Assembly: GCA_028275195.1 (NCBI GenBank)
Contig: JAPWVC010000001.1
Coordinates: 1-33,917, forward strand
Direction: 5' to 3'
Origin: Candidatus Acetothermia bacterium
GTDB lineage: Bacteria > Bipolaricaulota > Bipolaricaulia > RBG-16-55-9 > JANLFV01
DNA: 33,917 bases
The translations under genes were made by a program, and so were the position numbers. Shown here piece after piece: positions 3,717 through 22,049 of the stretch. Positions within the stretch are counted from its first letter, which is position 1; every line of letters begins with the position of its first letter. The notes under the pieces are model-generated. The model saw only the letters and a list, made by a program, of their open reading frames with translations, was not told the origin of the DNA and made no database searches.

Positions 3717-3826
3717 ATCGGCTCACCTCCGGCCAGACTCCAGGCTATCCAAGCTGTCATAGCTTAGCACTTCCGGCCCTGGTGGCGCAATCGGATCGGA
3801 TCGCCGTTGCTGAGAGTTTAAGGTTG

Positions 3827-3835
3827 TGATATGAT
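3827..3835 (+). promoter_or_regulatory. Extended -10 promoter element TGaTATGAT, 6 nt upstream of the folP ATG
   Basis: Sequence is ttgTGaTATGATcgagcgATG, with no Shine-Dalgarno between the hexamer and the ATG at 3842. Confidence 0.5.
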
Positions 3836-3841
3836 CGAGCG

Positions 3842-4693
3842 ATGGACAGGCTCGGGCTCGCACCCACGCTCGCGGAGCTAGGACTAGGGGAGCGGACCCT
3901 GATCATGGGGGTCGTCAATGTCACGCCCGACTCCTTCTCCGACGGGGGGCTCTACGCCGATCCGGAGAGGGCGATCGCCCACGCCTTGGCCCTGGCTGAG
4001 GAGGGGGCGGACATCATCGACATCGGGGGCGAATCGACCCGCCCCGGGGCCGTCCCCGTCCCAGTGGAGGTGGAGCTCGAGCGCGTGATCCCCGTGATCA
4101 AGGGGCTCAGCAAGGAGGTGAAGGTCCCGATCTCCATCGACACCTACAAGGCCGCGGTGGCCGAGGCGGCCCTCGAGGCCGGTGCGGCCATGGTCAATGA
4201 CATCTCCGCCTTGAGGTTCGATCCGCGAATGAGCGAGGTCCTCCGCGGATGTGAGGCGCCCGTAGTCCTGATGCACATGCAAGGGGAGCCGAGGACGATG
4301 CAGGAGAACCCGAGATACGACGATGTCGTCGGGGAGATCGGGGCCTTCTTGCGGGAGAGGGTGGCCGCGGCGGTCGAGGCCGGGATCGCCCCGGAGCGGC
4401 TGATCCTGGACCCGGGGATCGGCTTCGGGAAGACGGTCGCCCATAACCTCGAGATCCTCCGGAGGCTGGACGAGCTGAAGGCCCTGGGGAGGCCGATCCT
4501 CATCGGGCCTTCGAGGAAGTCCTTTATCGGCCAACTGAGCGGGGCCCCGGTGGGCGAGCGGCTCCCGGGGACGATCGCCGCCGTCGTCCTAGGGATCGCC
4601 CGAGGGGCGGACATCGTCCGGGTCCACGATGTCCGGGCCGTCAAGCAGGCGGTCATTCTGGCGGACGCTATCATTCGAGGTGAGCGAAGATGA
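3842..4693 (+). CDS. folP: Dihydropteroate synthase
   Basis: MGVVNVTPDSFSDGG, DIIDIGGESTRPGA, SIDTYKA, MVNDISA, DPGIGFGKT and GPSRKSFIG are canonical DHPS motifs. Confidence 0.93.
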   Translation: MDRLGLAPTLAELGLGERTLIMGVVNVTPDSFSDGGLYADPERAIAHALALAEEGADIIDIGGESTRPGAVPVPVEVELERVIPVIKGLSKEVKVPISIDTYKAAVAEAALEAGAAMVNDISALRFDPRMSEVLRGCEAPVVLMHMQGEPRTMQENPRYDDVVGEIGAFLRERVAAAVEAGIAPERLILDPGIGFGKTVAHNLEILRRLDELKALGRPILIGPSRKSFIGQLSGAPVGERLPGTIAAVVLGIARGADIVRVHDVRAVKQAVILADAIIRGERR

Positions 4694-5202
4694 ATCTTCC
4701 GATCAAGCAGCTCAAGAAGGAGCCGGGAATGGCCTTCCCCTTCTCCGGCCAGATCGAGCTCCCACCGATCGCACACGGAGGGACAGTGATGGCCCAAGGG
4801 AGTCGGGTCACCTTCCACGGCCGGGCGGTCTACCAGGGGGGGAAGGTCCATCTGACCCTGGCCCTCAAGGCGGAGGTGGAGCGGGAGTGCAGCCGCTGCT
4901 TAGCGCACTTCACCCAGACGGTCGAGAAGGAGGAAGAGATCACGCTGCGCGAGGAGCACGAGGTCCGGCTGGAGGACGATGACTTCACCTACCCCGATGA
5001 GGCTGAAGAGGTGGCCATCGAGCCCTACCTCCAGAGCCTGATCCTGAGCGCGCTCGGCCCCAAGCCGCTCTGTGCCCCGGACTGCCGTGGGCTCTGCCCC
5101 TCCTGCGGGGTAAACTTAAACGAGGAGGAGCACCACCCCGACTGCCCGGCCCTCCGGCCGGAGGTCGACCCGCGCCTGGCGCAGCTCTTGGATCTATTAT
5201 GA
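4690..5202 (+). CDS. YceD/DUF177 family protein
   Basis: About 170 aa, with ECSRCL and a C-terminal C.PDCRGLCPSCGVNLN....H motif typical of DUF177. The start overlaps the folP stop (ATGA). Confidence 0.75.
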   Translation: MNLPIKQLKKEPGMAFPFSGQIELPPIAHGGTVMAQGSRVTFHGRAVYQGGKVHLTLALKAEVERECSRCLAHFTQTVEKEEEITLREEHEVRLEDDDFTYPDEAEEVAIEPYLQSLILSALGPKPLCAPDCRGLCPSCGVNLNEEEHHPDCPALRPEVDPRLAQLLDLL

Positions 5203-5254
5203 TGTGGCAGGAATGAAGGATGTGAGGCCGAGGAGGGAACGGCGGATCGAGAAC

Positions 5255-5300
5255 GAGAGGGAGAAGAAAAGGGAGAGGGAGAGGGAAAGGGAGAGAGAAG
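5255..5300 (+). repeat. 46-nt uninterrupted homopurine (GA-only) tract between the yceD-like gene and ruvC
   Basis: gagagggagaagaaaagggagagggagagggaaagggagagagaag contains no pyrimidine from 5255 to 5300. It is built from GGGAGA/GGAGAG-like units. Confidence 0.9.
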
Positions 5301-5308
5301 CCCGCCCG

Positions 5309-5839
5309 ATGAGGGTCTTGGGGGTCGATCCCGGGCTAGCGACCACGGGGTATGGGCTCGTCGAGGAGGCAGCCCGGGGGCGCGGCCGAAGCCGCGGCGG
5401 GGAACCCTTCAGGCTCGTCGAGGCTGGGGTGATCACCACTCCCGCGGGGGAGCCGCTCCCCATGCGCCTCTTGACGATCTATGAGGAGATGCGCGGGCTA
5501 GTGGAGGAGTTCTGCCCTGATGAGCTGGCGGTGGAGGAGCTCTACTTCGCCAAGAACACCAAGACCGCGATCTCCGTGGCCGAGGCGAGAGGGGTGATCC
5601 TCCTCGCCACGGTCGGGCTCCCTCTCAACAGTTACACCCCTCTCCAGGTGAAGCTCCAGCTCACCGGCTTCGGCCGGGCGACGAAACAGCAGATCCAGGC
5701 GATGGTGGCCCGGCTCCTCGGCCTGCGAGAGCCCCCCAAGCCGGACGATGCGGCCGATGCCCTGGCAATCGCGCTCTGCCACCTCTTGAGAGGGGATCAC
5801 CGAGGTGAGGCCCATGTTCGCATCCACTCCTCTTCCTGA
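5309..5839 (+). CDS. ruvC: Crossover junction endodeoxyribonuclease RuvC
   Basis: MRVLGVDPGLATTGYGLVE... is the canonical RuvC N-terminus with the catalytic Asp. Also present: ELAVEELYFAKNTKTAISVAEARGV and DAADALAIALCH. I chose the ATG at 5309 over the in-frame GTG at 5204. Confidence 0.85.
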   Translation: MRVLGVDPGLATTGYGLVEEAARGRGRSRGGEPFRLVEAGVITTPAGEPLPMRLLTIYEEMRGLVEEFCPDELAVEELYFAKNTKTAISVAEARGVILLATVGLPLNSYTPLQVKLQLTGFGRATKQQIQAMVARLLGLREPPKPDDAADALAIALCHLLRGDHRGEAHVRIHSSS

Positions 5840-8513
5840 GCCCGGACCGAAGCGGCGGCTCCTGCTCATCGATGCCGGCTCGATCATCTACCCCGCTTAT
5901 CATGTGATGCGGGAGCTCGCCACCTCCAGTGGCTTCCCCACCGGCGCGATCTACGGTTTCGTTCGGACGCTGCTCAAGCTCCTCCACGACTACCCCTCGG
6001 AATACATGGCCGTGGCCTTCGACTCCAAGGGGAAGACGGTCCGCCACGAGCGCTATGAGGAGTATAAGGCCACCAGGCCGGTGATGGACGAGGCCCTGGC
6101 GGCCCAGCTCCCTAAGGTCAAGGAGCTCCTCCAGGCCTGGGGGATCCCCTCATTCGCCAAGGAGGGCTATGAGGCCGACGACCTCATCGCCACGCTCGCT
6201 CATCTGGCCGCGGAGAGGGGAGTCCCGGTCCTGATCGTCTCGGGGGACAAGGACCTGATGCAGCTCGTGGACGATAAGATTAAGGTCCTCAAGCCGGCCC
6301 GCCCGCCCCGCCAGGAGGTCGAGCTCCTCGACCGGGCGGGAGTGAAGGAGCACTTAGGGGTCCCGCCCGAACTGGTCCGGGACTACCTCGCCCTCGTCGG
6401 GGATAAGGTCGACAATGTCCCCGGGGTCCCGGGGATCGGGGAGAAGACGGCCCAGCGGCTCCTCGCGGAGTTCGGCTCGCTCGAGGGTGTCCTGGAGAAC
6501 GCCGAGAAGGTCGGGAACGCCCGGGTCCGGGAGAGCCTCCTCAAGCACCGGGAGCTGGCCCTCCTCAGCCGAGAGCTGGTCCAACTCCGCGAGGTCGAGC
6601 TCGAGCTCGGCCCGGAGCCGCTCGAGGCCTGTCGCCCCAGCACAAGGGATGAGGAGAGGCTCCGCACGCTCCTGGAGGAGCTGGAGTTCCGCTCGATCCT
6701 CAAGGAGCTCGGGCTGGCCCAGAAGGCCACGAGCGAGGGCCGCTACCACACGATCCTGACCGAGGCGGAGTTCGAGAGGCTCCTCGAGCGGCTCGCCTCC
6801 GCGGAGGAGTTCGCCCTCGACCTGGAGACGACGAGCCAGGACTCGATGCAAGCCGAGATCGTGGGGATCGCACTGGCCTTCGAGCCCTACGAGGGCTTCT
6901 ACATCCCCGTCGGCCACGACTACCTCGGCGCGCCTCAGCAGCTCGGGCGAGAATATGTCTTGGAGAAGCTCAGGCCCTTCCTCGAGGACGGGAAGAGGGT
7001 CCTCGGCCAGAACTTGAAATACGATGCCAAGGTCCTCCGCCGATACGGGATCAAGCTGAAGGAGATCGCCTTCGACTCCATGCTCGCGGCCTATCTTCTA
7101 GACCCCACGAGCCGGAAGGATTTGGGGGAGCTGGCCGCCCGCTACCTCAAGCGGGAGGTGACGAGCTACAAGGAGCTGTCCGATCAGGACATGCGGAAGG
7201 TCCCGATCGAGGAGGCCACCCGCTACGCCGGCGAGGACGCGGAGATCGTCCTCCGCTTGAAGGACCTGATGGTCAAAGAACTCCAAGAGAAGGGGCTCTA
7301 CCAGCTCTTCACCGAGGTCGAGCTCCCCCTCATCGAGGTCCTGGTGGAGATGGAGCTCGCGGGGGTCTTGATGGACCCGCGAGTTCTGGAGGAGCAAGCG
7401 AAGGAGATCGAGGTCCTCTTGGGAAACCTGCGGCAGGAGATCTTCCACCTCGCGGGGGAGGAGTTCAACCCCGCCTCGCCCAAGCAGGTGGCCTCCATCC
7501 TCTACGAGAAGCTGAAGCTCCCCGTGATCAAGAAGACCAAGACCGGCCCCTCGACCGACTCGCTCGTCCTCAAAGAGCTGGCCCTGCAGCACCCCCTCCC
7601 GGAGAAGATCGTCACCTACCGCGAGCTGGAGAAGCTGCTCAACACCTATATCCGGAAGCTCCCGGAATACATCAACCCCCGGACCGGGAGGATCCACACC
7701 TCCTTCAACCAATCGGTGACGGCGACCGGGAGGTTGTCCTCTTCAGATCCGAATCTCCAGAACATACCAGTGCGGACCGAGCTGGGAGGCCAGATCCGCA
7801 GGGCCTTCATCGCCCCGAAGGGGCGGAAGCTCCTCGCGGCCGACTACTCCCAGATCGAGCTGAGGATGCTCGCCCACCTCTCAGGGGATGAGAACTTAAT
7901 CCGGGCCTTCCGCGAGGAGGAGGACCTCCACACCCGGACGGCCGCGGAGCTCTTCGAGGTCCCTAAAGAGAAGGTGACCAAGGCCCAAAGGGAGATCGCC
8001 AAGCGGGTCAATTACGCCACGATCTACGGCGTGAGCGCCTTCCGCCTCTCCAAGGAGCTGGGGATCCCCCAGAAGGAGGCCCAGCAATACCTCGATAAGT
8101 ATTTTGCCCGCTACCCAAGAGTCAAGGAGTTCATCGAGGAGAAGATCCGCGAGGCCGAGAGCCAAGGCTATGCTACGACGATCCTCAATCGGCGAAGATA
8201 CCTGCCGCATATCACCAGCCGGGACCATAACCTGCGGAGCTACGACCAGCGGAACGCCATTAATACCCCAATCCAAGGCTCGAGCGCCGACTTGATGAAG
8301 CTGGCGATGCTCCGGGTCTATGAGAAGATCAAGGCGGGGGAGATCAAAGCGGATATGCTCCTCCAGATCCACGACGAGCTCCTCTTCGAGCTCGACGAAG
8401 CGGAGGTCGAGCGGGCCGCTCCCTTGATCAAGGAGACGATGGAGCGAGTCATGGCCCTCCGGGTCCCTTTAAAGGTCGATATAAAAGTCGGGGAGAACTG
8501 GGAGGAGATCTAA
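5814..8513 (+). CDS. polA: DNA polymerase I (5'-3' exonuclease, 3'-5' exonuclease and polymerase domains)
   Basis: The 5' nuclease domain shows LLLIDAGSIIY and SGDKDLMQL. The 3'-5' exonuclease motifs are ALDLETTS, GQNLKYDAKVL and YAGEDAEI. Polymerase motifs are ADYSQIELRMLAHLS, RRxAKxxNYATIYG and QIHDELLFE. The ATG at 5814 follows GAGGTGA; an alternative GTG lies at 5805. Confidence 0.93.
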   Translation: MFASTPLPEPGPKRRLLLIDAGSIIYPAYHVMRELATSSGFPTGAIYGFVRTLLKLLHDYPSEYMAVAFDSKGKTVRHERYEEYKATRPVMDEALAAQLPKVKELLQAWGIPSFAKEGYEADDLIATLAHLAAERGVPVLIVSGDKDLMQLVDDKIKVLKPARPPRQEVELLDRAGVKEHLGVPPELVRDYLALVGDKVDNVPGVPGIGEKTAQRLLAEFGSLEGVLENAEKVGNARVRESLLKHRELALLSRELVQLREVELELGPEPLEACRPSTRDEERLRTLLEELEFRSILKELGLAQKATSEGRYHTILTEAEFERLLERLASAEEFALDLETTSQDSMQAEIVGIALAFEPYEGFYIPVGHDYLGAPQQLGREYVLEKLRPFLEDGKRVLGQNLKYDAKVLRRYGIKLKEIAFDSMLAAYLLDPTSRKDLGELAARYLKREVTSYKELSDQDMRKVPIEEATRYAGEDAEIVLRLKDLMVKELQEKGLYQLFTEVELPLIEVLVEMELAGVLMDPRVLEEQAKEIEVLLGNLRQEIFHLAGEEFNPASPKQVASILYEKLKLPVIKKTKTGPSTDSLVLKELALQHPLPEKIVTYRELEKLLNTYIRKLPEYINPRTGRIHTSFNQSVTATGRLSSSDPNLQNIPVRTELGGQIRRAFIAPKGRKLLAADYSQIELRMLAHLSGDENLIRAFREEEDLHTRTAAELFEVPKEKVTKAQREIAKRVNYATIYGVSAFRLSKELGIPQKEAQQYLDKYFARYPRVKEFIEEKIREAESQGYATTILNRRRYLPHITSRDHNLRSYDQRNAINTPIQGSSADLMKLAMLRVYEKIKAGEIKADMLLQIHDELLFELDEAEVERAAPLIKETMERVMALRVPLKVDIKVGENWEEI

Positions 8514-14914: not shown

Positions 14915-16255
14915 CTAGCCGAACGGCCCGCCTTCCCAGACCTCCCGGACCTGCGGGGGGACGGCCTCCCCCTTGCCCCTGAGGTAAGCCCCAAGCCGCC
15001 GGGTGAAGAAGAGGGCGCTCAAGATCGAGCTCACCCCGCCGAGGAGGACCGTCTCCGTCGGGCCGATCAGCCCGGCCAGCCCGCCGGCGAGGAGTCCCCC
15101 GAAGGGGAACATCCCCATGAAGGCCATGGTGTAGAGGCTCATGACCCTCCCGCGCTTGTCCTCTGCCACGATCGTTTGCAAGACAGTGTTGCTCGCGGCC
15201 GCTTGGGCCGTCATCCCGAAGCCAGCGACTAGGAGCAAGAGTAGCGAGAGCCAGAGGGCCCGGGAGAGGGAGAAGGCGATCAGCCCGAAGCCGAAGATGG
15301 TCGAGGCGAGGGCGATGAACCTCCCCAGGCCGAGGACTCCCCGCCGAGAGGCAAGATAGATCGCGCCTAGGAGGGCCCCCAGCCCCACGGCCCCCATGAG
15401 GAACCCCAGGGTGCTCGGCCCGCCGTGGAGGACCTCTCGGGCGAAGACCGGCATGAGGACCGTGTAGGGCATCCCCAGGAGGCTGATCACGGCCAGGAGG
15501 AGGAGGATCGCCCGGATCGGGGGCGACCCGAAGGCGTAATCGAACCCCTCGCGTAGCTCCGCCCAGACTCGCACGGCCTGGCCACGCGGCTCCCGCGGCT
15601 GGACCCGCATGGCCGCCAGGGCCGCGATGACCGGGAGGTAGCTGAGAGCGTTGAGGAGGAAGCAGACCCCCTCCCCGAGGGCCGCGACCAGGACCCCGGC
15701 GATCGAGGGGCCGATGAGCCTCGCACTGTTCACCATCGAGGAGTTCAAGGCGATCGCATTCCCCAGGTCCTGGCGGTCCTCGATCATCTCCACCACGAAA
15801 GCCTGCCGGACCGGCATGTCGACGGCATTGACCAAGCCGAGGAAGATCCCCAAGAGGACGATCTGCCAGACGGCGATCGCGCCGGTGAGGACGAGGGCCG
15901 CCAGGACCCCGGCCTGGAGCATGGCGAGGGACTGGGTGAGGATGATGATCTTCTGGCGGTTCCCCCAATCGCTCCAGACCCCGGCGAATGGGGCGAGGAC
16001 AAAGGTCGGGAGCTGGGAGACGAAACTGACCAGCCCCAAGAGGAGCGCGGACCCCGTCAGGCGGTAGACGAGCCAGCTCAGGGCGATCCGCTGCATCCAG
16101 GTCCCGATCAGGGAGATGCTCTGCCCGCTGAAGAAGAGCCGGTAGTTCCGGTGCCGGAGGGCCCGGACCAGCCCTCCCGGCCCCAGCCGCGGCTTCGGTC
16201 CTGCTGCCGGGCTCTCCAGCCCTTGGAAAGCTCGCGCTCGCTCGCCCTTGCCCAT
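14915..16255 (-). CDS. MFS transporter (EntS/MFS_3-like)
   Basis: LRHRNYRLFFSGQSISLIGTWMQRIALSWLVYRLTGS is followed by about 12 hydrophobic segments. I chose the start at the internal ATG 16255 (MGKGERA...) because the longer ORF would run through its own promoter. Confidence 0.8.
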   Translation of the reverse strand: MGKGERARAFQGLESPAAGPKPRLGPGGLVRALRHRNYRLFFSGQSISLIGTWMQRIALSWLVYRLTGSALLLGLVSFVSQLPTFVLAPFAGVWSDWGNRQKIIILTQSLAMLQAGVLAALVLTGAIAVWQIVLLGIFLGLVNAVDMPVRQAFVVEMIEDRQDLGNAIALNSSMVNSARLIGPSIAGVLVAALGEGVCFLLNALSYLPVIAALAAMRVQPREPRGQAVRVWAELREGFDYAFGSPPIRAILLLLAVISLLGMPYTVLMPVFAREVLHGGPSTLGFLMGAVGLGALLGAIYLASRRGVLGLGRFIALASTIFGFGLIAFSLSRALWLSLLLLLVAGFGMTAQAAASNTVLQTIVAEDKRGRVMSLYTMAFMGMFPFGGLLAGGLAGLIGPTETVLLGGVSSILSALFFTRRLGAYLRGKGEAVPPQVREVWEGGPFG

Positions 16256-16290
16256 CTTGCTCGCTTGACCCTGACCTGGAATGAGCAGAA

Positions 16291-16320
16291 ATTTTAGCCC
16301 CAATGGCAAGAGGGCGTCAA
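16291..16320 (-). promoter_or_regulatory. Sigma-70-type promoter TTGACG-18 nt-TAAAAT for the MFS gene
   Basis: Minus strand reads ctaTTGACGccctcttgccattggggcTAAAATttctgc. This lies about 35 nt upstream of the ATG at 16255. Confidence 0.5.
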
Positions 16321-16358
16321 TAGGGCGAGGGAGGGCCGGTGCGGAAAGCGCGGGCATT

Positions 16359-16367
16359 TGCTATAAT
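16359..16367 (+). promoter_or_regulatory. Extended -10 element TGcTATAAT, 9 nt upstream of the iorA ATG
   Basis: catTTGcTATAATttggctcccATG, with no purine-rich Shine-Dalgarno in the 9-nt spacer. Confidence 0.5.
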
Positions 16368-16376
16368 TTGGCTCCC

Positions 16377-18050
16377 ATGCCCGAGCTCCTGGCCAAGAAG
16401 CAGCTCCTCTTGGGGAATGAGGCGCTCGTCCGAGGGGCGCTCGAGGCCGGCTTGGGCTTCGCCACCACCTATCCTGGGACCCCGGCCTCGGAGATCGGGG
16501 ACACCCTCGCCCGCCTGGCGAAGGAGTGCGGGCTCTATTTTGAATACTCCGTCAATGAGAAGGTGGCCCTGGAGCTGGCCGCCGCGGCCGCGATCTCGGG
16601 GGTCCGCGCGCTCGTGGCGATGAAGCATGTCGGGCTGAATGTGGCCGCGGACGCCTTCATCAGCACCCTCTACACCGGGACGAGGGCGGGGCTCCTGGTC
16701 GTGACGGCCGACGATCCGAGCATGCACTCCTCCCAGAACGAGCAGGACAATCGCTACTACGCCTACCTCGCCGGGGCGCCGCTTCTGGAGCCTTCCGACC
16801 CGAAAGAGGCCTACGCTATGGCCAAGGCGGCCTTCCCCCTCTCGGAGGAGCTCGAGCTCCCGGTCCTGCTCCGGCTGACCACCAGGGTCGCGCACACCCG
16901 CGCGGGGGTGGAGGTCGGGAAGCTCCCGCAGGCCCGAGAGAGGAGGGTCAAAGGCCATTTCGAGAAGGACCCCTTCAGGTTCGTGATCGTCCCCTCCGTG
17001 GCCCGCCGGGCCCACAAGCTCCTCCTGGAGCGGCTGGCGCGGGCCGAGGCCCTTTCCGAGGGCTCGCCCTTCAACTTCCTCTTAGGGGAGGGAGAGGAGC
17101 TGGGGATCGCCACCTCGGGGGTCTCCTACACTTATGTCTACGATGCCATCGAGGAGTTAGGGGCCTGGGACCGCGTGAGGCTCCTGAAGCTGGGGATGAG
17201 CTATCCCCTGCCGAGGGAGCTCATCGCGCGGTTCCTGGAGTCGGTCGAGCGGGTCCTCGTGGTCGAGGAGCTCGAGCCCCTCTTGGAGGCAGCCCTCCGG
17301 GCGAGGGCCCAGGAGTTGGGGCTCAAAGTGAAGATCCTCGGGAAGGGGACGGGCGGGCTCTCGAGGCTCTATGAGTATGATCCCGACCGGGTGAGGAGCG
17401 CGCTCGCTCAAGCCCTAGGATTGAAGGAGGAGGAAGCGACCACTCCTCCGCCCGAGGCCGAGCCAGAGTGGAGGCTTCCTGATCGCCCGCCGGTCCTCTG
17501 TCCCGGCTGCCCCCACCGCGCCACATATTATGCCCTCAAGCTAGCTTTAGGGAAGGAGGCGGAGAACACGATCTTCACCACCGACATCGGCTGCTATACC
17601 TTGGGATTGCTCCCGCCCCTCTCCATGGCCGACCATCTGCTCTGCATGGGCTCGTCGGTCGGGACGGCCGGTGGCTTCGCCCGGGCCACGGACCAACGAG
17701 TGATCGCCTTCATCGGGGACTCGACCCTCTTCCATGCCGGGATACCCGCGATCGTCAATGCTGTCCATAATGGGCATAAGTTCTTGGTCGTGGTCCTGGA
17801 TAATCAGACGACGGCGATGACCGGGCACCAGCCCCATCCCGGGCTGGCCTCCTCGGCCTTGGGCCCGGCCGAGCCGGTCCCGCTCGAGCGACTCCTCTCA
17901 GGCTGCGGAGTCCGGAAGATCCATGTCATCGACCCGCAGGACCTTCAAGGGGCGGTCGCGGCCTTCCAGGAGGCCCTCAAGGAGAGCGAGGCGGAGCTGA
18001 CGGTCGTGATCTCCCGCCACCCTTGTGTGCTCCTCGGCCAGGAGGGCTGA
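16377..18050 (+). CDS. iorA: Indolepyruvate:ferredoxin oxidoreductase alpha subunit (TPP-binding), lacking the usual C-terminal ferredoxin module
   Basis: MPELLAKKQLLLGNEALVRGALEAGLGFATTYPGTPASEI, SVNEKVALELAAAAAISG, DDPSMHSSQNEQDNR, LCPGCPHRATYYAL, DIGCYTLG and GDSTLFHAG. The protein ends ...VISRHPCVLLGQEG with no CxxCxxCxxxCP motifs. Confidence 0.85.
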   Translation: MPELLAKKQLLLGNEALVRGALEAGLGFATTYPGTPASEIGDTLARLAKECGLYFEYSVNEKVALELAAAAAISGVRALVAMKHVGLNVAADAFISTLYTGTRAGLLVVTADDPSMHSSQNEQDNRYYAYLAGAPLLEPSDPKEAYAMAKAAFPLSEELELPVLLRLTTRVAHTRAGVEVGKLPQARERRVKGHFEKDPFRFVIVPSVARRAHKLLLERLARAEALSEGSPFNFLLGEGEELGIATSGVSYTYVYDAIEELGAWDRVRLLKLGMSYPLPRELIARFLESVERVLVVEELEPLLEAALRARAQELGLKVKILGKGTGGLSRLYEYDPDRVRSALAQALGLKEEEATTPPPEAEPEWRLPDRPPVLCPGCPHRATYYALKLALGKEAENTIFTTDIGCYTLGLLPPLSMADHLLCMGSSVGTAGGFARATDQRVIAFIGDSTLFHAGIPAIVNAVHNGHKFLVVVLDNQTTAMTGHQPHPGLASSALGPAEPVPLERLLSGCGVRKIHVIDPQDLQGAVAAFQEALKESEAELTVVISRHPCVLLGQEG

Positions 18051-18057
18051 AATTGGA

Positions 18058-19800
18058 ATGGCCTCAGTAAAGGTCGATCTCACGAGGTGCAAGCGCTGCT
18101 GGAACCGCCAGCCGGGCTTCCGCTGCCCCGTCCCGTTCGAGCTCTTGTATGAATCCTTCCGGGCGTTGCAGAAGGTCCAGGCCGGTATGGGCATGGGCAA
18201 GATGGCCCTCCCGCCCTGCGTCGCTGCCTGCCCGGCCAACATCTGTGTCCAAGGGTATGTCGGGCTGGTTGCCGCTGGCCTCTATGAGGAGGCCTACCGG
18301 CTCATCCGCTCGAGAGTCCCTTTTCCTCACACCCTGGGGCTCGTCTGCCCCGGGCCGTGTGAGCGGAGCTGCATCCGGGGCGATTACGATCAGCCGGTCG
18401 CGATCAATGCCCTGAAGCGGTTCGCCGCGGAGCGAACTAGCCCAGCGGCCCGGCGGCGGCTCCTCGAGGAGCTGAAGGCCGGGATCATTGAGAACGGCCT
18501 GGAAGTGGCGGTCGTCGGGGCCGGCCCGGCGGGGCTCACTTGCGCCCACGACCTTCGGCTCCGGGGCTATGCCGTGACGATCTATGAAGCCCTCGAGAGG
18601 CCGGGCGGGCTCTTGCTCACTGGGATCCCGGCCTACCGCCTCCCTCGACCGGTGCTCGAGGAGGAATTAGCGGAGATCTTTGAGCTCGGGGTGAAATTTG
18701 CGGGCGGCCTCCGCCTCGGGGTTGACCTGGAGCTCGCGGATCTCCTGGAAGGCACGAGCGCGGTCTTCCTCGCCGCGGGGGCCCAGAGCGCTACCAGGCT
18801 GAACATCCCCGGGGAGGAGGCCGAGGGGGTCTACGAGGCCCTCGCCTTCCTGAGGGAGGTGAACCTCGGCGGGAGGCCGAAGGTCGGGCCAGCCGTAGCA
18901 GTGATCGGCGGCGGGGACGCGGCGGTCGACGGGGCACGGGTCGCACTCCGCCTTGGGGCAGAGAAGGTCTCGATCCTGTATCGTCGGTCGCGGGCGGAGA
19001 TGCCGGCCCACAGCGAGCAGCTCGCTCAAGCCGAGGCCGAGGGGGTCGAGCTGCTCGAGCGGGTCGCGCCCGTCCGGTTCATCGTTGAGTCGGGAAGGCT
19101 CCGGGCCATCGAGCTGGTCCGGACGGAGCTGGGCGAGCCGGACGCCAGTGGCCGCCGGCGGCCGATCCCGGTCCCCGGCTCCGAATTTATTCTGGAGGCG
19201 GAGACCGCGCTCGTGGCCGCGGGGCAGAGGCCGGAGCCGGGCCTCCTCGCGGGATTGGGCATCGAACTGGACGAGGCCGGCCTACCCCGCGTGGACCAGA
19301 ACATGATGACCTCAGTCGAGGGCCTCTTCGCTGGGGGGGACCTCACCACCGGCCCGGGGACGGTCATCTCCGCGATCGCCGCGGGGAAGCGGGCCGCGGC
19401 GGGGATCGACCTCTACCTCCGGGGCGAGCGGGCCGAGCCGGTCTACTTCGCCTCCTTAGCCGACCTGGAGCATGAGGAGCGCTACCATCCCCCGGAGGTC
19501 CCTCGCCGCTCCAGGGCTGCCCCGCCCCAGGCCCCGGCCACCGCTCGGCGCGAGGACTTCCGCCAGGTCGAGCTCGGCCTCGATGAGGTGGAGGCCCAAG
19601 CGGAGGCCCGGAGGTGCCTGGCCTGCGGCCTCTGCGCCAACTGCAATGCCTGCTTGGACACCTTCGGCTGCCCGGCCATCTCCCTGGACGAGGCGGGCCA
19701 GATCGCGATCGAAGAGGCACTCTGCAATGGCTGTGGGGTCTGCCCCCAGCTCTGCCCCAACGATGCCCTGATCGAGGCCGAGGAGGGGCCCGATGCCTGA
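18058..19800 (+). CDS. GltD/NfnB-like FAD- and NAD(P)H-binding iron-sulfur flavoprotein fused to a C-terminal 2x[4Fe-4S] ferredoxin-like module
   Basis: The N-terminal Cys-rich region reads CVAACPANICVQGY...VCPGPCERSC. There are two Rossmann motifs, VAVVGAGPAGLTCAHDL and VAVIGGGDAAVDGA...ILYRRS. LFAGGDLTTGPGTVISAIAAGKRAA is also present. A Pro/Arg-rich linker precedes CLACGLCANCNACLDTFGCPAI...CNGCGVCPQLCPNDAL. The ATG at 18058 lies 7 nt after the iorA stop. Confidence 0.8.
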   Translation: MASVKVDLTRCKRCWNRQPGFRCPVPFELLYESFRALQKVQAGMGMGKMALPPCVAACPANICVQGYVGLVAAGLYEEAYRLIRSRVPFPHTLGLVCPGPCERSCIRGDYDQPVAINALKRFAAERTSPAARRRLLEELKAGIIENGLEVAVVGAGPAGLTCAHDLRLRGYAVTIYEALERPGGLLLTGIPAYRLPRPVLEEELAEIFELGVKFAGGLRLGVDLELADLLEGTSAVFLAAGAQSATRLNIPGEEAEGVYEALAFLREVNLGGRPKVGPAVAVIGGGDAAVDGARVALRLGAEKVSILYRRSRAEMPAHSEQLAQAEAEGVELLERVAPVRFIVESGRLRAIELVRTELGEPDASGRRRPIPVPGSEFILEAETALVAAGQRPEPGLLAGLGIELDEAGLPRVDQNMMTSVEGLFAGGDLTTGPGTVISAIAAGKRAAAGIDLYLRGERAEPVYFASLADLEHEERYHPPEVPRRSRAAPPQAPATARREDFRQVELGLDEVEAQAEARRCLACGLCANCNACLDTFGCPAISLDEAGQIAIEEALCNGCGVCPQLCPNDALIEAEEGPDA

Positions 19801-20422
19801 ACGCTTGAGGATCTACATCATCGGTGTCGGGGGGCAGGGGACTCTCACCGTCGCGCGGCTCCTGGGGGAGACCGCCCTCCGCCGGGGCCTCGAGGCTGTA
19901 GTGAGCGAGGTCCATGGGATGGCCCAGCGGGGCGGGATCGTCGAGACCGCGGTCCTCCTCGGGGGGTATAAAGGCCCGGTCCTCGGCCGGGGCGGGGCCG
20001 AGGTGATCCTGGCCTTCGAGCCCTTGGAGGCCTTGAGGGCGGTCTTGGCCTTCGGGAAGGCCTCCCCGCGGAGCTGGGTCCTCACCAATACTCATCCGAT
20101 CAGGCCGATCACGGTCTCGCTCAAACTCGGGGAGTATCCGGACCTCGAGCGGGCCCTCGCCGAGTTAGAGGGGCGAGTGGCGCGGCTGATCAAGCTCGAT
20201 GCGACGGCCTTGGCTGAGGAGGCCGGCTCGCCCCTCTCGTTGAACATGGTGATGCTCGGGGCATTGGCCGCTACGGAGCTCCTTCCCTTCCCCGCGGAGG
20301 CGCTCGAGGAGGGGATCAGGGCCTTCGCCCCCGGCTGGGCCGCGGTGAACTTGAGGGCCTTCCAGCTCGGGCGAGAGGCCGTGGCTCGGGCTCTGGCTGA
20401 GACCCGGACCACCGCGGGGTGA
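19793..20422 (+). CDS. iorB: Indolepyruvate oxidoreductase beta subunit
   Basis: IYIIGVGGQGTLTVARLLGE, SEVHGMAQRGGIVETAV, ILAFEPLEALR and LSLNMVMLGALA. It overlaps the preceding gene by 8 nt. Confidence 0.85.
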   Translation: MPERLRIYIIGVGGQGTLTVARLLGETALRRGLEAVVSEVHGMAQRGGIVETAVLLGGYKGPVLGRGGAEVILAFEPLEALRAVLAFGKASPRSWVLTNTHPIRPITVSLKLGEYPDLERALAELEGRVARLIKLDATALAEEAGSPLSLNMVMLGALAATELLPFPAEALEEGIRAFAPGWAAVNLRAFQLGREAVARALAETRTTAG

Positions 20423-20441
20423 TCGAATTCCCCCTCTCAGG

Positions 20442-20460
20442 GAGGGAAGATCCTTCCCTC
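20442..20460 (+). terminator. 8-bp stem, 3-nt loop hairpin (GAGGGAAG-atc-CTTCCCTC) after iorB, with no U-tract
   Basis: A perfect inverted repeat read directly from the sequence, 20 nt after the iorB stop and upstream of the pdxS -10 box. Confidence 0.35.
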
Positions 20461-20487
20461 GCCCTTGAGGGGCCTCTTCGGGCTCGG

Positions 20488-20493
20488 TATAAT
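20488..20493 (+). promoter_or_regulatory. -10 box TATAAT upstream of pdxS
   Basis: ctcggTATAATtcgactgcaattctattAAGGGAGGAGGGAGAATG. The leader is roughly 25 nt with a strong Shine-Dalgarno. Confidence 0.5.
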
Positions 20494-20525
20494 TCGACTG
20501 CAATTCTATTAAGGGAGGAGGGAGA

Positions 20526-21401
20526 ATGGAACGCGGGACCTTCAGGGTGAAGAGCGGTCTGGCGGAGATGCTCAAGGGCGGGGTAATCATGGATGTCACT
20601 AACGCTGAGCAGGCGAGGATCGCCGAGGCGGCCGGAGCGGTGGCGGTGATGGCCCTCGAGCGGGTCCCGGCCGACATTCGTGCCGCCGGGGGAGTGGCGC
20701 GGATGGCCGATCCTCAGAAGATCAAGGAGATCCAGGAGGCCGTCTCGATCCCGGTGATGGCCAAGTGCCGGATCGGCCACTTCGTGGAGGCCCAGATCCT
20801 CGAGGCCCTCGGGGTCGATTACATCGATGAGTCCGAGGTGCTCACCCCCGCGGACCCCTGGCACCACATCGATAAGTGGCGGTTCAAAGTCCCGTTCGTC
20901 TGCGGCTGCCGCGACCTAGGGGAGGCGGCAAGGAGGTTGGCCGAGGGGGCGGCGATGCTCCGGACTAAAGGGGAGGCAGGGACGGGGAATGTGATCGAGG
21001 CCGTCCGGCACATGCGCTTGATCAATAAGCAGGTCCGCGAGGTCTGTCATATGCCGGAGGAGGAACTGGTGGAGTTCGCCAAGGAGATCGGAGCCCCCCT
21101 CGCGGTCCTCCAGTTGATCGCCGAGACCGGCCGCCTCCCGGTGGTGAACTTCGCCGCTGGTGGGATCGCCACTCCGGCCGACGCGGCGATGATGATGCAG
21201 CTCGGGGCGGATGGGGTCTTCGTCGGGAGCGGGATCTTCAAGTCTAGTGATCCGGAGAAGCGGGCGAGGGCGATCGTCCAGGCCGTCACATACTATAATG
21301 ACCCCCAGAAGCTGGCCGAGGTCAGCACCGGTCTGGGCGAGCCGATGAAGGGGATCCCCATCGAGGCGATCCCTCAAGAGCAACTGCTCCAGACGAGATG
21401 A
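20526..21401 (+). CDS. pdxS: Pyridoxal 5'-phosphate synthase lyase subunit PdxS
   Basis: [62 protein letters not shown] and [14 protein letters not shown]. Confidence 0.95.
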
Positions 21402-21485
21402 GACGGCCTCTGGAGCGCTTGCATGCTGGCAGGCGCGTAGAGTGCGATCTTGCCGGCGGGCGCACTCGCGAATGCTAATGTTGGG

Positions 21486-22049
21486 ATGAGAGTCGGGGTC
21501 CTGGCGCTACAGGGCGACTTCCGGGAGCACCTCCAGGCGGTGGAGCGCCTGGGTGCTCGGGGGGTCGAGGTCCGCCGGCCCTGGGATTTGGAGGGGGTGG
21601 AGCGGCTGATCATCCCCGGGGGCGAATCGACGGCCATCTCCCTCCTCTTGCGGGAGAGCGGCCTCGATGAGGAGCTCCGGCGATTGGGGAGAGCCGGGCT
21701 CCCACTCTTCGGGACCTGTGCCGGGCTGATCCTCCTGGCGCGGGAGGTCCTGGGAGAGGATCGGGTCGCCCCGCTCGGTCTGATCGACATCACCGTGAGG
21801 AGGAACGCCTATGGCCGGCAGATCGAGAGCTTCGAGGAGGACCTCGAGGTCAAGGGGCTCGGGCCGACGCCGCTCCGGGCTGTCTTCATCCGGGCCCCGA
21901 AGATCGTGGCCTTCGGCCCGAGAGTCGAGGTCCTGGCCTATCAGGATGGGCTGCCGGTCCTGGCCCGGGAAGGGAAGGTCCTGGTGAGCAGCTTCCATCC
22001 CGAGCTAACGGGGGACCTCCGGCTCCATCGCTATTTCCTGGGGCTATGA
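21486..22049 (+). CDS. pdxT: Pyridoxal 5'-phosphate synthase glutaminase subunit PdxT
   Basis: MRVGVLALQGDFREHL, LIIPGGESTA, GTCAGLILLA, VRRNAYGRQ and FIRAP...SFHPELT. I chose the internal ATG at 21486 because homologs start there. Confidence 0.92.
   Translation: MRVGVLALQGDFREHLQAVERLGARGVEVRRPWDLEGVERLIIPGGESTAISLLLRESGLDEELRRLGRAGLPLFGTCAGLILLAREVLGEDRVAPLGLIDITVRRNAYGRQIESFEEDLEVKGLGPTPLRAVFIRAPKIVAFGPRVEVLAYQDGLPVLAREGKVLVSSFHPELTGDLRLHRYFLGL

What the first reader, a model, noticed from the sequence alone, without database searches (positions are those of the whole stretch)
16377..20422. IOR-like 2-oxoacid oxidoreductase cluster with a GltD/NfnB-type flavoprotein inserted between iorA and iorB and carrying the ferredoxin module that IorA has lost
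Seen in the sequence:
- IorA (557 aa) stops right after its TPP domain (...VISRHPCVLLGQEG) and has no CxxCxxCxxxCP pair.
- Seven nt later a 580-aa ORF begins. It has a Cys-rich GltD-type N-terminus (CVAACPANICVQGY, VCPGPCERSC).
- It also has two Rossmann folds (VAVVGAGPAGL; VAVIGGGDAAVDGA...YRRS) and the GGD flavin motif.
- After a Pro/Arg-rich linker it carries a di-cluster ferredoxin-like tail (CLACGLCANCNACLDTFGCPAI...CNGCGVCPQLCPNDAL).
- Its extreme N-terminus (VKVDLTRCKRCWNRQPGFRCP) looks like a degenerate half ferredoxin motif.
- It overlaps iorB by 8 nt, so the three genes are translationally coupled.
Established knowledge:
- Canonical IOR is alpha/beta, with the 2x[4Fe-4S] domain at the IorA C-terminus.
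- GltD, NfnB and SudA-type proteins are FAD plus Fe-S NAD(P)H oxidoreductases.
Inference:
- A pyridine-nucleotide flavoprotein has been wired directly into the electron path of an aryl-pyruvate/2-oxoacid oxidoreductase.
- That would give either an NAD(P)+-linked enzyme or a flavin-based electron-bifurcating/confurcating one, rather than a purely ferredoxin-dependent enzyme.
- It could equally run in reverse as an NAD(P)H-assisted reductive carboxylase of arylacetyl-CoA.
I do not know of a biochemical characterisation of this three-subunit architecture.
Basis: partly seen in the sequence, partly recalled or inferred. Interest (0 to 1): 0.72.

Follow-up and report, generated by a model that had tools for sequence, protein, structure and literature searches.

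The report
Indolepyruvate oxidoreductase with built-in NADPH flavoprotein
Three overlapping genes in a Bipolaricaulota genome encode an aromatic 2-oxoacid oxidoreductase whose usual ferredoxin-like domain sits on an inserted NADPH-type flavoprotein, so the enzyme probably hands its electrons to NADP+ rather than ferredoxin; no enzyme of this exact type has been tested.

Summary
iorA (16377-18050) stops after the TPP domain and has no ferredoxin domain. A 580-aa GltD/NfnB-type Fe-S flavoprotein (18058-19800) follows after 7 nt and overlaps iorB (19793-20422) by 8 nt. Its C-terminal dicluster domain is IorA-like, scoring 44-49 bits against a canonical-IorA HMM versus 14-17 bits for PorD-type tails.

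New evidence:
- The same order recurs in relatives (Fraserbacteria and an unnamed MAG).
- At least 120 protein clusters carry IorA::GltD::Fer4 in one ~1140-aa chain. Two of the chains examined also carry IorB. These fusions indicate one enzyme.
- The flavoprotein core is circularly permuted, as in the non-bifurcating StnC/NfnABC modules. It has the YRR motif linked to NADP(H) and no NfnA-like partner nearby.
- Four extra invariant Cys suggest a sixth [4Fe-4S] cluster.

Most likely function: an arylpyruvate:NADP+ oxidoreductase (CoA-acylating) with a linear path from TPP through six clusters to FAD and NADP+. This is inferred, not assayed.

NAD(P)-linked 2-oxoacid oxidoreductases are already known (Azoarcus KGOR, phenylglyoxylate:NAD+ oxidoreductase), and OFOR-linked DsrL-like genes have been noted in print. 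I rate it a new variant of a known kind, of moderate interest. Caveat: some Fer4-less iorAB loci lack the flavoprotein gene.

The parts
16359..16367 (+). TGcTATAAT, an extended -10-like element 9 nt upstream of the iorA ATG. There is no Shine-Dalgarno sequence, so the mRNA may be leaderless or have a very short leader.
   Evidence: Read directly from the sequence. The consensus scan did not call it because there is no -35. Weak evidence.
16377..18050 (+). iorA: IOR alpha subunit, 557 aa (POR_N + TPP_enzyme_C). It is truncated right after the fourth proximal-cluster Cys (…SRHPC550VLLGQEG) and has no 2x[4Fe-4S] domain.
   Evidence: canonical-IorA HMM positions 10-549 of 621; Cys list.
17499..18026 (+). 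Codons of C375, C378, C406 and C550 of IorA: the putative ligands of the [4Fe-4S] cluster next to TPP.
   Evidence: CPGC…GC…PC pattern. The equivalent Cys (C375, C378, C403, C544) are invariant in 68 fused homologs. Assigning them as ligands is inference from the OFOR family.
18040..18046 (+). AGGAGGG Shine-Dalgarno sequence for the middle gene, lying inside the end of iorA.
18058..19800 (+). Middle gene: 580-aa Fe-S flavoprotein. It consists of a junction Cys motif, a circularly permuted GltD/NfnB core, a linker and an IorA-type dicluster ferredoxin domain.
   Evidence: (AF2 pLDDT 91.3, pTM 0.91).
18067..18138 (+). N-terminal strand plus C11-x2-C14-x8-C23. It is collinear with the start of IorA's ferredoxin domain in the fused homologs. 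Together with C63 it is a candidate extra [4Fe-4S] site.
   Evidence: in fusion P0030 the pre-GltD segment matches the IorA HMM up to position 573; P0242 matches IOR_alpha up to 566/595; junction Cys plus the C63 equivalent are invariant in 68 fusions. The existence of the cluster is inferred.
18211..18438 (+). Fer4_20 region (residues 52-127) holding C54, C58, C63, C97, C101, E102 and C105: the two [4Fe-4S] sites of the GltD/NfnB module.
18502..19386 (+). FAD and NAD(P)H binding domains (residues 149-443; GAGPAG, GGGDAA, FAGGD).
   Evidence: Pyr_redox_2, 113 bits; Foldseek to NfnB/NfnL: target-normalised TM 0.82 for 5jca_L and 5jfc_L, 0.83 for 4ylf_B.
18979..18987 (+). Y308-R309-R310, a motif associated with NADP(H) rather than NAD(H).
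   Evidence: Invariant in alignments A1-A3. The link between the YRR motif and NADP(H) specificity was shown for DsrL-2 (PMC7596348). Applying it here is inference.
19429..19545 (+). Pro/Arg-rich linker (residues 458-496).
19546..19626 (+). Permuted NfnB N-terminal segment RREDFRQVELGLDEVEAQAEARRC520LAC523. EAxRCxxC is invariant in all 46 subfamily members aligned.
   Evidence: (aligns to residues 7-46 of 5jca_L and 9-42 of 4ylf_B).
19627..19782 (+). IorA-type 2x[4Fe-4S] ferredoxin domain (C526, C529, C532, C538 / C556, C559, C562, C566). It has the IorA spacing CxxCxxCx5CPA.
   Evidence: IOR_alpha model 551-595, E 5e-8; 44-49 bits versus 14-17 bits for PorD-type tails.
19793..20422 (+). iorB: IOR beta subunit (POR domain), 209 aa. 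Its start overlaps the middle gene by 8 nt.
   Evidence: Scores are below NCBIfam's equivalog cutoffs (TIGR03334 182.7 versus 205.8).
20465..20493 (+). Promoter-like site in front of pdxS. It marks the downstream end of the ior operon.
   Evidence: pdxS and pdxT identified.

Best explanation
The three genes encode one enzyme: an IOR-type (arylpyruvate/2-oxoacid, CoA-acylating) oxidoreductase with a built-in NADP(H) module.

Proposed mechanism:
- IorA and IorB decarboxylate the 2-oxoacid on TPP.
- The two electrons leave one at a time, through the proximal [4Fe-4S] of IorA into the IorA-type dicluster domain at the C-terminus of the middle protein.
- They probably then pass through an extra cluster (C11, C14, C23, C63) into the two [4Fe-4S] clusters of the permuted GltD/NfnB core.
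- The FAD collects them and delivers a hydride to NADP+.

Net reaction: arylpyruvate + CoA + NADP+ -> arylacetyl-CoA + CO2 + NADPH. This is strongly exergonic and effectively one-way. It amounts to an IOR fused to an NfnB-like, non-energy-conserving ferredoxin:NADP+ oxidoreductase.

Evolutionary origin: a mobile, permuted GltD cassette was inserted into IorA's ferredoxin domain. The window carries a version in which that gene is split at the IorA/cassette boundary.

Shown: the domain anatomy, the conservation, the fusions and the permutation. Inferred: complex formation, cluster count, electron path, NADP specificity, direction and substrate.
For: 1. Domain boundaries and missing or relocated Fer4.
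2. Same three-gene order in Fraserbacteria (L001) and an unnamed MAG (L003). At least 10 IorA/flavoprotein pairs share identical longest-contig lengths.
3. Single-chain fusions: at least 120 clusters of ~1120-1200 aa with POR_N-TPP_C-Fer4_20-Pyr_redox_2-Fer4. P0252 (1384 aa) and P0248 also carry the IorB POR domain. In three fused loci examined (L002, L087, L088) an iorB gene lies downstream; in L087 an ankyrin-repeat gene separates the two.
4. AF2 of fusion P0242: pLDDT 90.0, pTM 0.82, i.e. a confidently packed multidomain body.
5. IOR-associated flavoprotein modules form one clade (100% bootstrap); the split forms are a 99% subclade.
6. The core is permuted exactly as in StnC and Bfu-type NfnA. 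Those are the best Foldseek matches. In StnC that FAD is non-bifurcating and feeds a linear cluster chain (PMC10482914).
7. No NfnA/NfnS-like gene among the neighbours.
8. YRR is invariant. It correlates with strict NADP(H) use in DsrL-2 (PMC7596348).
9. NfnB homologs of the Cac_0764 type act as plain Fd:NADP+ oxidoreductases (PMC12221290).
10. Precedent: the A. evansii 2-oxoglutarate:NADP+ oxidoreductase has a GltD/NfnB-family subunit (PMC10134865).
Against: - No biochemical data exist for any member.
- Three loci have a Fer4-less IorA followed directly by IorB with no flavoprotein gene (L006, L089, L090). One of them (P0138) lies inside the split clade of the IorA tree, so the partnership is not obligatory.
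- The IorA tree does not group split and fused forms together, so the history is unsettled.
- Dissipating about 180 mV by reducing NADP+ directly is wasteful for an energy-limited anaerobe, which keeps energy-coupled alternatives alive.
- IorB scores below NCBIfam equivalog cutoffs, and substrate range cannot be read from sequence.
Confidence: 0.6

Rival explanations
1. Energy-coupled enzyme using flavin-based bifurcation or confurcation. The NfnB-like FAD has two partners, the internal cluster chain and an external ferredoxin or second pyridine nucleotide. 2-oxoacid oxidation would then be coupled to reducing two acceptors, or in reverse NADPH plus reduced ferredoxin would together drive reductive carboxylation.
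For: The core is homologous to NfnB/NfnL, whose FAD bifurcates. The organism is probably an energy-limited anaerobe (Bipolaricaulota), for which wasting low-potential electrons is costly. An extra, uncharacterised cluster site (C11, C14, C23, C63) exists.
Against: No NfnA-like second path is encoded nearby. The module carries the StnC-type permutation, and that FAD is experimentally non-bifurcating. NfnB homologs without NfnA behave as plain FNORs. C63 sits within the Fer4_20 Fe-S region of the sequence, which suggests the extra cluster lies in line with the chain rather than on the other face of the FAD. That placement is inference only.
Confidence: 0.15
2. Dual-outlet enzyme without coupling. 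The complex still reduces free ferredoxin at the exposed dicluster domain, as a canonical IOR does. The flavoprotein is a valve that diverts electrons to NADP+, or takes them from NADPH, according to the redox state of the cell.
For: The IorA-type ferredoxin domain is retained almost unchanged. Fer4-less IorAB without the flavoprotein exists, which shows the catalytic core can work with other partners. DsrL enzymes run in both directions.
Against: Stable fusion into one chain in many lineages points to a dedicated internal route. Nothing in the sequence speaks to ferredoxin docking.
Confidence: 0.13
3. Biosynthetic enzyme running in reverse. NADPH-driven reductive carboxylation of arylacetyl-CoA to arylpyruvate would supply aromatic amino acid synthesis, as proposed for IOR in some methanogens (own knowledge).
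For: The YRR/NADPH-type site fits an anabolic donor. The housekeeping neighbourhood (pdxS/pdxT, an aminotransferase 2.6 kb upstream) is not obviously catabolic.
Against: NADPH (about -320 to -380 mV) alone is far too weak for a roughly -500 mV couple (established thermodynamics of 2-oxoacid synthases). No arylacetate-CoA ligase gene is adjacent.
Confidence: 0.07
4. No complex at all. The middle protein is an independent NfnB/DsrL-like oxidoreductase that merely shares an operon with a degenerate IorAB.
For: Some relatives have Fer4-less iorAB without the middle gene. GltD modules are promiscuous and occur fused to HdrA, NuoF and sulfite reductase.
Against: Single-chain fusions that include all three proteins. 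An IorA-specific tail on the flavoprotein. Translational coupling. Monophyly of the IOR-linked modules.
Confidence: 0.05

Closest known systems
Indolepyruvate:ferredoxin oxidoreductase (IorAB; Pyrococcus furiosus type, TIGR03336/TIGR03334)
   Same: IorA catalytic part (POR_N + TPP_C) scores 690 bits, above the equivalog cutoff. IorB has the POR domain. The proximal-cluster Cys and an IorA-type dicluster domain are both present in the system.
   Different: The dicluster domain is not on IorA but on a separate 580-aa flavoprotein. There are three genes instead of two. The acceptor is probably NADP+ rather than ferredoxin. IorB scores below the equivalog cutoffs.
2-oxoglutarate:NADP+ oxidoreductase of Azoarcus evansii (Ebenau-Jehle et al. 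2003; described via PMC10134865 and own knowledge, primary paper not held)
   Same: An OFOR core plus an additional FAD/Fe-S subunit of the GltD/NfnB family, which makes the enzyme reduce NADP+ directly. It also has three subunits.
   Different: The core is KorAB type and the substrate is 2-oxoglutarate. I could not obtain the sequence to test whether its flavoprotein has the same permuted, ferredoxin-tailed architecture.
PRK12771 / NF009410 'NAD(P)-binding protein' (a GltD module embedded in the PorD delta subunit)
   Same: Same permuted GltD core, linker, EAxRCxxC motif and C-terminal dicluster domain; 44-47% identity. It sits inside an OFOR gene cluster, between porC and porA.
   Different: The window protein scores 471 bits, below the 516 cutoff. 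Its tail is IorA-like rather than PorD-like (44-49 versus 14-17 bits on the IorA HMM). It has the extra N-terminal Cys motif plus C63 and lacks the PorD 'GSWR' arm. It forms a separate clade.
StnC / NfnA of Bfu-type NfnABC transhydrogenases (8oh5, 9bov, 9n5u)
   Same: Best sequence and fold matches. Identical circular permutation of the GltD module. The module is inserted into a host Fe-S domain and serves as an NADPH port with a linear cluster chain.
   Different: The host there is a NuoG-like domain attached to a HydBC-like bifurcating module. Here the host is an IOR and no HydBC-like genes are present.
DsrL (NAD(P)H:acceptor oxidoreductase of dissimilatory sulfite reductase)
   Same: Same domain order: N-terminal two-cluster domain, FAD/NAD(P) domains, linker, C-terminal dicluster ferredoxin. 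It has the YRR motif, as NADP-specific DsrL-2 does. It couples a pyridine nucleotide to a partner Fe-S enzyme.
   Different: The partner is IorAB, not DsrAB. The DsrL authors explicitly excluded OFOR-linked homologs from the family (PMC7596348).
NfnB/NfnL of NfnAB (5jca, 4ylf) and Cac_0764-type FNOR
   Same: Fold (target-normalised TM 0.82-0.83), FAD, NADPH site and two [4Fe-4S] clusters.
   Different: No NfnA partner. The N-terminal segment is permuted. There are an additional ferredoxin tail and a junction motif.
Phenylglyoxylate:NAD+ oxidoreductase PadEFGHI (Hirsch et al. 1998) and Euglena/Cryptosporidium pyruvate:NADP+ oxidoreductase (own knowledge)
   Same: 2-oxoacid oxidoreductases that pass electrons internally to a flavoprotein and then to NAD(P)+.
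   Different: Different OFOR subfamilies, subunit numbers and flavoprotein types (the CPR-like domain in PNO). Sequences were not compared here.

Membership tests
IOR (IorA, TIGR03336) | Alpha subunit with POR_N and TPP-binding domains scoring above the equivalog cutoff | tested here: met
   690.2 bits versus cutoff 650.9.
IOR (IorA, TIGR03336) | 2x[4Fe-4S] ferredoxin domain at the C-terminus of the alpha subunit | tested here: not met
   The match ends at model position 536/595 and IorA has no CxxCxxC. The domain is found instead on the middle protein.
IOR (IorB, TIGR03334 / NF005323) | Beta subunit above the equivalog cutoff | tested here: not met
   182.7 versus 205.8 and 188 versus 238. 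The POR domain itself is clear (105 bits).
IOR | Two-subunit alpha/beta composition with ferredoxin as acceptor | tested here: not met
   There are three translationally coupled genes. The acceptor cannot be tested with these tools.
IOR | Arylpyruvate substrate specificity | not testable with these tools
   Needs enzyme assays.
PRK12771 (NF009410) | Score above the curated cutoff of 516 bits | tested here: not met
   471.2 bits for the window protein. True members P0041 and P0052 score 639 and 644.
PRK12771 (NF009410) | PorD-like tail, and position between porC and porA | tested here: not met
   The window tail hits IOR_alpha, and no PorD family appears among its 25 best NCBIfam matches. The neighbours are iorA and iorB. 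P0041 and P0052 do hit PorD models and do sit in the delta-subunit slot.
NfnB/NfnL (bifurcating NfnAB) | GltD-like fold with FAD, NADPH site and two [4Fe-4S] clusters | tested here: met
   Foldseek E 4e-48, target-normalised TM 0.82 to 5jca_L; phmmer 1e-95.
NfnB/NfnL (bifurcating NfnAB) | NfnA/NfnS partner (FAD + [2Fe-2S]) encoded alongside | tested here: not met
   None among the neighbouring genes.
NfnB/NfnL (bifurcating NfnAB) | Native (non-permuted) order, with the RCLxC motif at the N-terminus | tested here: not met
   The motif lies at residues 516-523, after the flavin domains, and aligns to NfnB residues 7-46.
StnC-type permuted GltD cassette | Continuous alignment from PPCxxxCP through the FAD/NADPH domains to EAxRCxxC | tested here: met
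   Residues 51-527/536 align to 101-569/571 of 9bov_A and 8oh5_C.
StnC-type permuted GltD cassette | Association with a HydBC-like bifurcating module | tested here: not met
   No such genes in the operon or among the neighbours examined.
DsrL | Domain order: N-terminal ferredoxin domain, FAD/NAD(P), linker, C-terminal ferredoxin domain | tested here: met
   family definition from PMC7596348.
DsrL | Encoded in a dsrAB organism or context and not linked to OFOR genes | tested here: not met
   Flanked by iorA and iorB. Criterion [3] of PMC7596348 excludes such genes.
NAD(P)-dependent OFOR (A. evansii KGOR type) | 2-oxoacid- and CoA-dependent NADP+ reduction by a TPP/Fe-S/FAD complex | not testable with these tools
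   The architecture is compatible, but activity needs assays.

The most novel reading that the evidence does not exclude
The IOR-GltD complex is an energy-coupling enzyme. The NfnB-like FAD, aided by the extra junction cluster, would bifurcate or confurcate between the internal low-potential chain, external ferredoxin and NADP(H). This would give either a ferredoxin-plus-NADP+-reducing 2-oxoacid dehydrogenase or an NADPH + reduced-ferredoxin-driven arylpyruvate synthase. It would be the first flavin-based bifurcating member of the OFOR superfamily, and it would be widespread in uncultured Myxococcota, Planctomycetota, Acidobacteriota and Bipolaricaulota.
Probability: 0.12. Interest if true: 0.8.

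Novelty: new variant of a known kind. Interest (0 to 1): 0.5.

Why it matters
If the proposed function is right, a sizeable family changes meaning. It comprises at least 120 fused protein clusters plus the split Bipolaricaulota/Fraserbacteria form, all now annotated as 'IorA' or 'FAD-dependent oxidoreductase'. These enzymes would make NADPH, not reduced ferredoxin, from aromatic amino-acid breakdown. That changes the redox and energy budgets inferred for many uncultured anaerobes.

It also shows a general design rule. One circularly permuted GltD/NfnB cassette, whose two ends meet at an Fe-S cluster, has been inserted into the ferredoxin domains of at least two OFOR lineages (IorA and PorD). 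The same cassette is found in NuoG-, HdrA-, NuoF- and sulfite-reductase-type proteins, turning ferredoxin-dependent enzymes into pyridine-nucleotide-dependent ones.

Such a self-contained 2-oxoacid:NADP+ enzyme, possibly thermostable given the thermophile-like sequence composition, could be useful in metabolic engineering.

Tried and rejected
1. The genome contigs survey with alignment A2 was swamped by the generic pattern [AV]VIGGGD[AS]A. The best loci (L007-L027) turned out to be HdrA::GltD and NuoF::GltD fusions with no ior neighbours.
2. The primary paper on A. evansii KGOR (PMC225024 / its DOI) is not held. The comparison rests on a secondary citation and my own knowledge.
3. Model coordinates are not exposed. 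I could not measure Cys clustering or inter-cluster distances in either AF2 model. The 'sixth cluster' and the continuous wire remain inferences from invariant Cys.
4. I tested whether the N-terminal CxxC is the remnant of IorA's ferredoxin start using in-silico chimeras. Adding the N-terminal 8-14 residues raises the IorA-HMM score by about 14 bits, but the isolated N-terminus scores about 0 bits. This is suggestive, not decisive.
5. I expected split and fused IorA parts to be sister groups. The NJ tree instead places the split IorAs among canonical IorAs. I do not claim a single clean history; possibilities are module transfer, reversion or a rate artefact.
6. I considered a nearby NfnA-like gene. 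In L001 and L089 a NAD_binding_1/DHODB_Fe-S_bind gene lies upstream, but on the opposite strand in a hydrogenase/AsrAB-like operon. No such gene was found among the window neighbours examined.
7. Literature searches combining indolepyruvate with GltD, NfnB, DsrL or Bipolaricaulota found no description of this architecture.

Full report
**1.

The ORF list and direct reading of the junctions give three + strand genes:
- iorA, 16377-18050, 557 aa
- a middle gene, 18058-19800, 580 aa
- iorB, 19793-20422, 209 aa

The gap between iorA and the middle gene is 7 nt and is preceded by AGGAGGG at 18040-18046. The middle gene overlaps iorB by 8 nt.

Pfam finds only POR_N and TPP_enzyme_C in IorA. NCBIfam's IOR_alpha equivalog scores 690 bits (cutoff 650.9) but aligns only to model positions 2-536 of 595, so the C-terminal dicluster domain is missing. 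IorA has seven Cys and no CxxCxxC. C375, C378, C406 and C550 fit the four ligands of the TPP-proximal cluster, and the protein ends six residues after the last of them.

The middle protein has Fer4_20 (52-127), Pyr_redox_2 (149-443) and a weak dicluster match (515-570). Its residues 525-571 hit exactly the part of the IOR_alpha model that IorA lacks (551-595, E 5e-8). IorB has the POR domain, although it scores below the IOR_beta equivalog cutoffs.

The neighbourhood is housekeeping: a class-III aminotransferase, an epimerase and a divergent MFS transporter upstream, and pdxS/pdxT downstream behind their own promoter-like site. No NfnA-like gene was found among the neighbours examined.

**2. 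Source organism**

The closest homologs are from MAGs of Candidatus Bipolaricaulia/Acetothermia (78-98% for the flavoprotein, 79-100% for IorA). Candidatus Fraserbacteria comes next at 62-65%.

**3. The arrangement is conserved, and natural fusions tie the three proteins together**

The same order, iorA(no Fer4)-flavoprotein-iorB, is present in the Fraserbacteria locus L001 and in L003 (54% identity). At least ten IorA/flavoprotein cluster pairs share identical longest-contig lengths.

A homolog cut by a contig end (P0030) had a TPP domain fused to the flavoprotein. I searched with it against 1.84 billion representatives, and then with the full-length hit P0242 against the 5.8-billion-protein set. 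All 120 proteins listed in that second search carry IorA and flavoprotein domains in a single chain; most are about 1120-1200 aa. Pfam scans of five of them (P0242, P0245, P0248, P0252, P0265) read (POR_N-)TPP_enzyme_C-Fer4_20-Pyr_redox_2-Fer4.

These fusions come from MAGs labelled Deltaproteobacteria, Myxococcales/Myxococcota, Polyangia, Bradymonadaceae, Phycisphaerales and Acidobacteria. P0252 (1384 aa) and P0248 additionally carry the IorB POR domain at the C-terminus, so all three window genes occur as one polypeptide. In three fused loci examined (L002, L087, L088) an iorB gene lies downstream; in L087 an ankyrin-repeat gene separates the two. AF2 on P0242 gives pLDDT 90.0 and pTM 0.82 for 1142 residues, consistent with a compact multidomain body.

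This is strong comparative evidence that the window's three products form one enzyme. It is not a biochemical demonstration.

**4. Anatomy of the middle protein**

AF2 gives a confident model (pLDDT 91.3, pTM 0.91). The best sequence and fold matches are not classical GltD or NfnB. They are the GltD-like modules embedded in StnC and in NfnA of Bfu-type NfnABC complexes (9bov, 9n5u, 8oh5). NfnB/NfnL follows (5jca, 4ylf; target-normalised TM 0.82-0.83), then GltD.

The residue-level alignments explain why. Residues 52-457 align to NfnB from about residue 45-50 onward. Residues 485-524 (…RREDFRQVELGLDEVEAQAEARRCLAC) align to the N-terminus of NfnB (7-46 of 5jca_L; 9-42 of 4ylf_B). The core is therefore circularly permuted, in the same way as in StnC, with which the alignment is continuous (51-527/536 against 101-569/571). 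EAxRCxxC is invariant in all 46 subfamily members aligned, including 900-aa HdrA-like proteins.

The true dicluster ferredoxin motif is C526-x2-C529-x2-C532-x5-C538-P … C556-x2-C559-x2-C562-x3-C566-P.

That tail is specifically IorA-like:
- It has the IorA spacing and context (CxxCLDxFGCPA; compare the canonical tails).
- Against an HMM built here from 96 canonical IorAs it scores 44-49 bits at HMM positions 563-619. The tails of PorD-type relatives score 14-17 bits.

**5. The N-terminus**

The N-terminal 27 residues (VKVDLTRC11KRC14…C23P) are collinear with the start of IorA's ferredoxin domain in the fusions. In P0030 the pre-cassette segment matches the IorA HMM up to position 573 of 621. 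In P0242 IOR_alpha aligns through model position 566 of 595 before the cassette begins. In-silico chimeras gain about 14 bits when these residues are added, but the isolated N-terminus scores about 0 bits.

The three N-terminal Cys and C63 (…CPANIC63VQGY) co-occur. They are present in split and fused IOR-type proteins and absent from the PorD-type proteins inspected. Their equivalents (C568, C571, C580, C629) are invariant in 68 fusions. I infer an additional [4Fe-4S] site at the junction.

Per protomer that gives six clusters (one in IorA, five in the middle protein), plus TPP and FAD. Of the middle protein's 20 Cys, 19 fall in these motifs.

**6. A wider pattern**

Relatives at 44-47% identity (P0041, P0052) are true members of NCBIfam PRK12771 (639-644 bits against a 516 cutoff). 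Their tails hit PorD models (P0041 also passes the TIGR02179 cutoff), and their N-termini carry a PorD-like 'GSWR' motif (own reading of the alignment). They sit between porC and porA, in the slot of the delta subunit of four-subunit OFORs. The window protein misses the PRK12771 cutoff (471 bits).

The same permuted cassette has therefore been inserted into the ferredoxin modules of two different OFOR lineages. It also occurs in NuoG-like (StnC; PMC10482914), HdrA-like and NuoF-like proteins, and in a sulfite-reductase-like protein (L088).

In an NJ tree of the cassette, all IOR-linked modules form one clade (100% bootstrap), with the split forms as a 99% subclade. PorD-type and HdrA-type modules lie outside. 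The IorA tree is not congruent: fused IorA parts separate from all others (79%), and split IorAs nest among canonical IorAs. Whether there was one insertion followed by gene fission, or transfer of the cassette-plus-tail between IOR lineages, is unsettled.

**7. Mechanism**

I favour a linear, non-bifurcating path:

2-oxoacid/TPP -> proximal cluster (IorA) -> IorA-type dicluster tail -> junction cluster -> two GltD clusters -> FAD -> NADP+

Reasons:
- The module is the StnC-type permutant. In StnABC the FAD was shown to be non-bifurcating and to feed a linear chain (PMC10482914).
- No NfnA/NfnS partner, which provides the second branch in NfnAB, is encoded nearby.
- NfnB homologs lacking NfnA (Cac_0764 type) are plain ferredoxin:NADP+ oxidoreductases (PMC12221290).
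- Y308-R309-R310 is invariant. In the architecturally identical DsrL family, YRR goes with strict NADP(H) dependence (PMC7596348).
- A characterised precedent exists. The 2-oxoglutarate:NADP+ oxidoreductase of Azoarcus evansii has a GltD/NfnB-family subunit (PMC10134865 citing Ebenau-Jehle 2003). Phenylglyoxylate:NAD+ oxidoreductase is another NAD-linked OFOR (Hirsch 1998, cited in PMC5109826).

Thermodynamically, oxidation at about -500 mV coupled to NADP+ at about -320 mV is strongly downhill, so the reverse reaction with NADPH alone is implausible (established knowledge). Substrate identity (arylpyruvates) rests only on family membership of IorA.

**8. Caveats and rivals**

- Three loci have a Fer4-less IorA followed directly by IorB with no flavoprotein gene (L006, L089, L090). 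One of these IorAs (P0138, 62% identical) lies within the split clade. The catalytic core can evidently exist without this partner, and loss or gain of the middle gene has happened.
- An energy-limited anaerobe wasting about 180 mV is a reason to keep bifurcation or confurcation (0.15) and an uncoupled dual-outlet enzyme (0.13) as live rivals.
- Reverse biosynthetic operation (0.07) and mere co-location (0.05) are less likely.

**9. Novelty**

I found no paper describing or testing an IOR with an integrated GltD/NfnB module. Databases name these proteins 'IorA', 'FAD-dependent oxidoreductase' or 'glutamate synthase beta subunit-like'.

The general idea, an OFOR hard-wired to a pyridine-nucleotide flavoprotein, has been known since 1998-2003. 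The DsrL study explicitly mentions, and sets aside, DsrL-like genes adjacent to pyruvate/ketoisovalerate oxidoreductase genes. I therefore rate it a new variant of a known kind.

- the large fused family, which supports a single enzyme
- the recognition of a circularly permuted, insertable cassette shared with StnC and PRK12771
- the candidate sixth cluster

Interest: moderate (0.5).

Noticed in passing
window 16359-16379: TGcTATAAT (an extended -10-like element) ends 9 nt before the iorA ATG and there is no Shine-Dalgarno sequence. iorA may be translated from a leaderless or near-leaderless mRNA. The longer ORF starting at 16281 has no support from homolog lengths (546-568 aa).
   Followed up: partly
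L004 5001-6683; L005 4767-6497: True PRK12771 proteins (P0041, P0052) occupy the delta-subunit (PorD) slot between porC and porA. They keep a PorD-like tail (NCBIfam PorD hits) and an N-terminal 'GSWR' motif (own reading), so a GltD cassette is embedded in PorD. They are probably NAD(P)-linked four-subunit OFORs.
   Followed up: partly
L006 5001-7282; L089 4001-6311; L090 71-2555: IorA lacking any ferredoxin domain is followed directly by IorB with no flavoprotein gene. How these enzymes pass electrons on is unexplained.
   Followed up: partly
L001 637-3104 and L089 1-3835 (minus strand, divergent from iorA): In two distant relatives the ior cluster lies back-to-back with a Fer4_22 / cNMP-binding / NAD_binding_1+DHODB_Fe-S_bind operon. 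In L089 this continues into NiFe-hydrogenase small and large subunits. It resembles NADP-linked group 3b sulfhydrogenase (own knowledge), a possible sink for NADPH made by the IOR.
   Followed up: no
L088 11278-14664 (minus strand): A 1128-aa protein combines NIR_SIR sulfite/nitrite-reductase domains with Fer4_20, Pyr_redox_2 and Fer4. This is the same GltD(+ferredoxin) cassette fused to a sulfite-reductase-like enzyme, a few kb from a fused ior gene.
   Followed up: no
L007-L012, L019, L026 (about 3500-8300 in each): Large (900-1600 aa) HdrA-like proteins contain the same GltD cassette and lie next to HdrB/C-like genes. L011, L014 and L021 have NuoF-like::GltD fusions next to NuoE-like genes. 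All were retrieved by the generic pattern of the genome scan.
   Followed up: partly
window 20465-22049: pdxS (20526-21401) and pdxT (21450-22049) follow the ior operon behind their own promoter-like site (TTGAGG-17-TATAAT). No intrinsic terminator-like site was found anywhere in 16000-20700.
   Followed up: partly
IorA versus cassette phylogenies: The flavoprotein modules of split and fused IORs are monophyletic, but the attached IorA parts are not. Split IorAs are closer to canonical IorAs (about 58% identity) than to fused ones (about 51%). This hints at cassette transfer between IOR lineages or at strongly unequal rates.
   Followed up: partly
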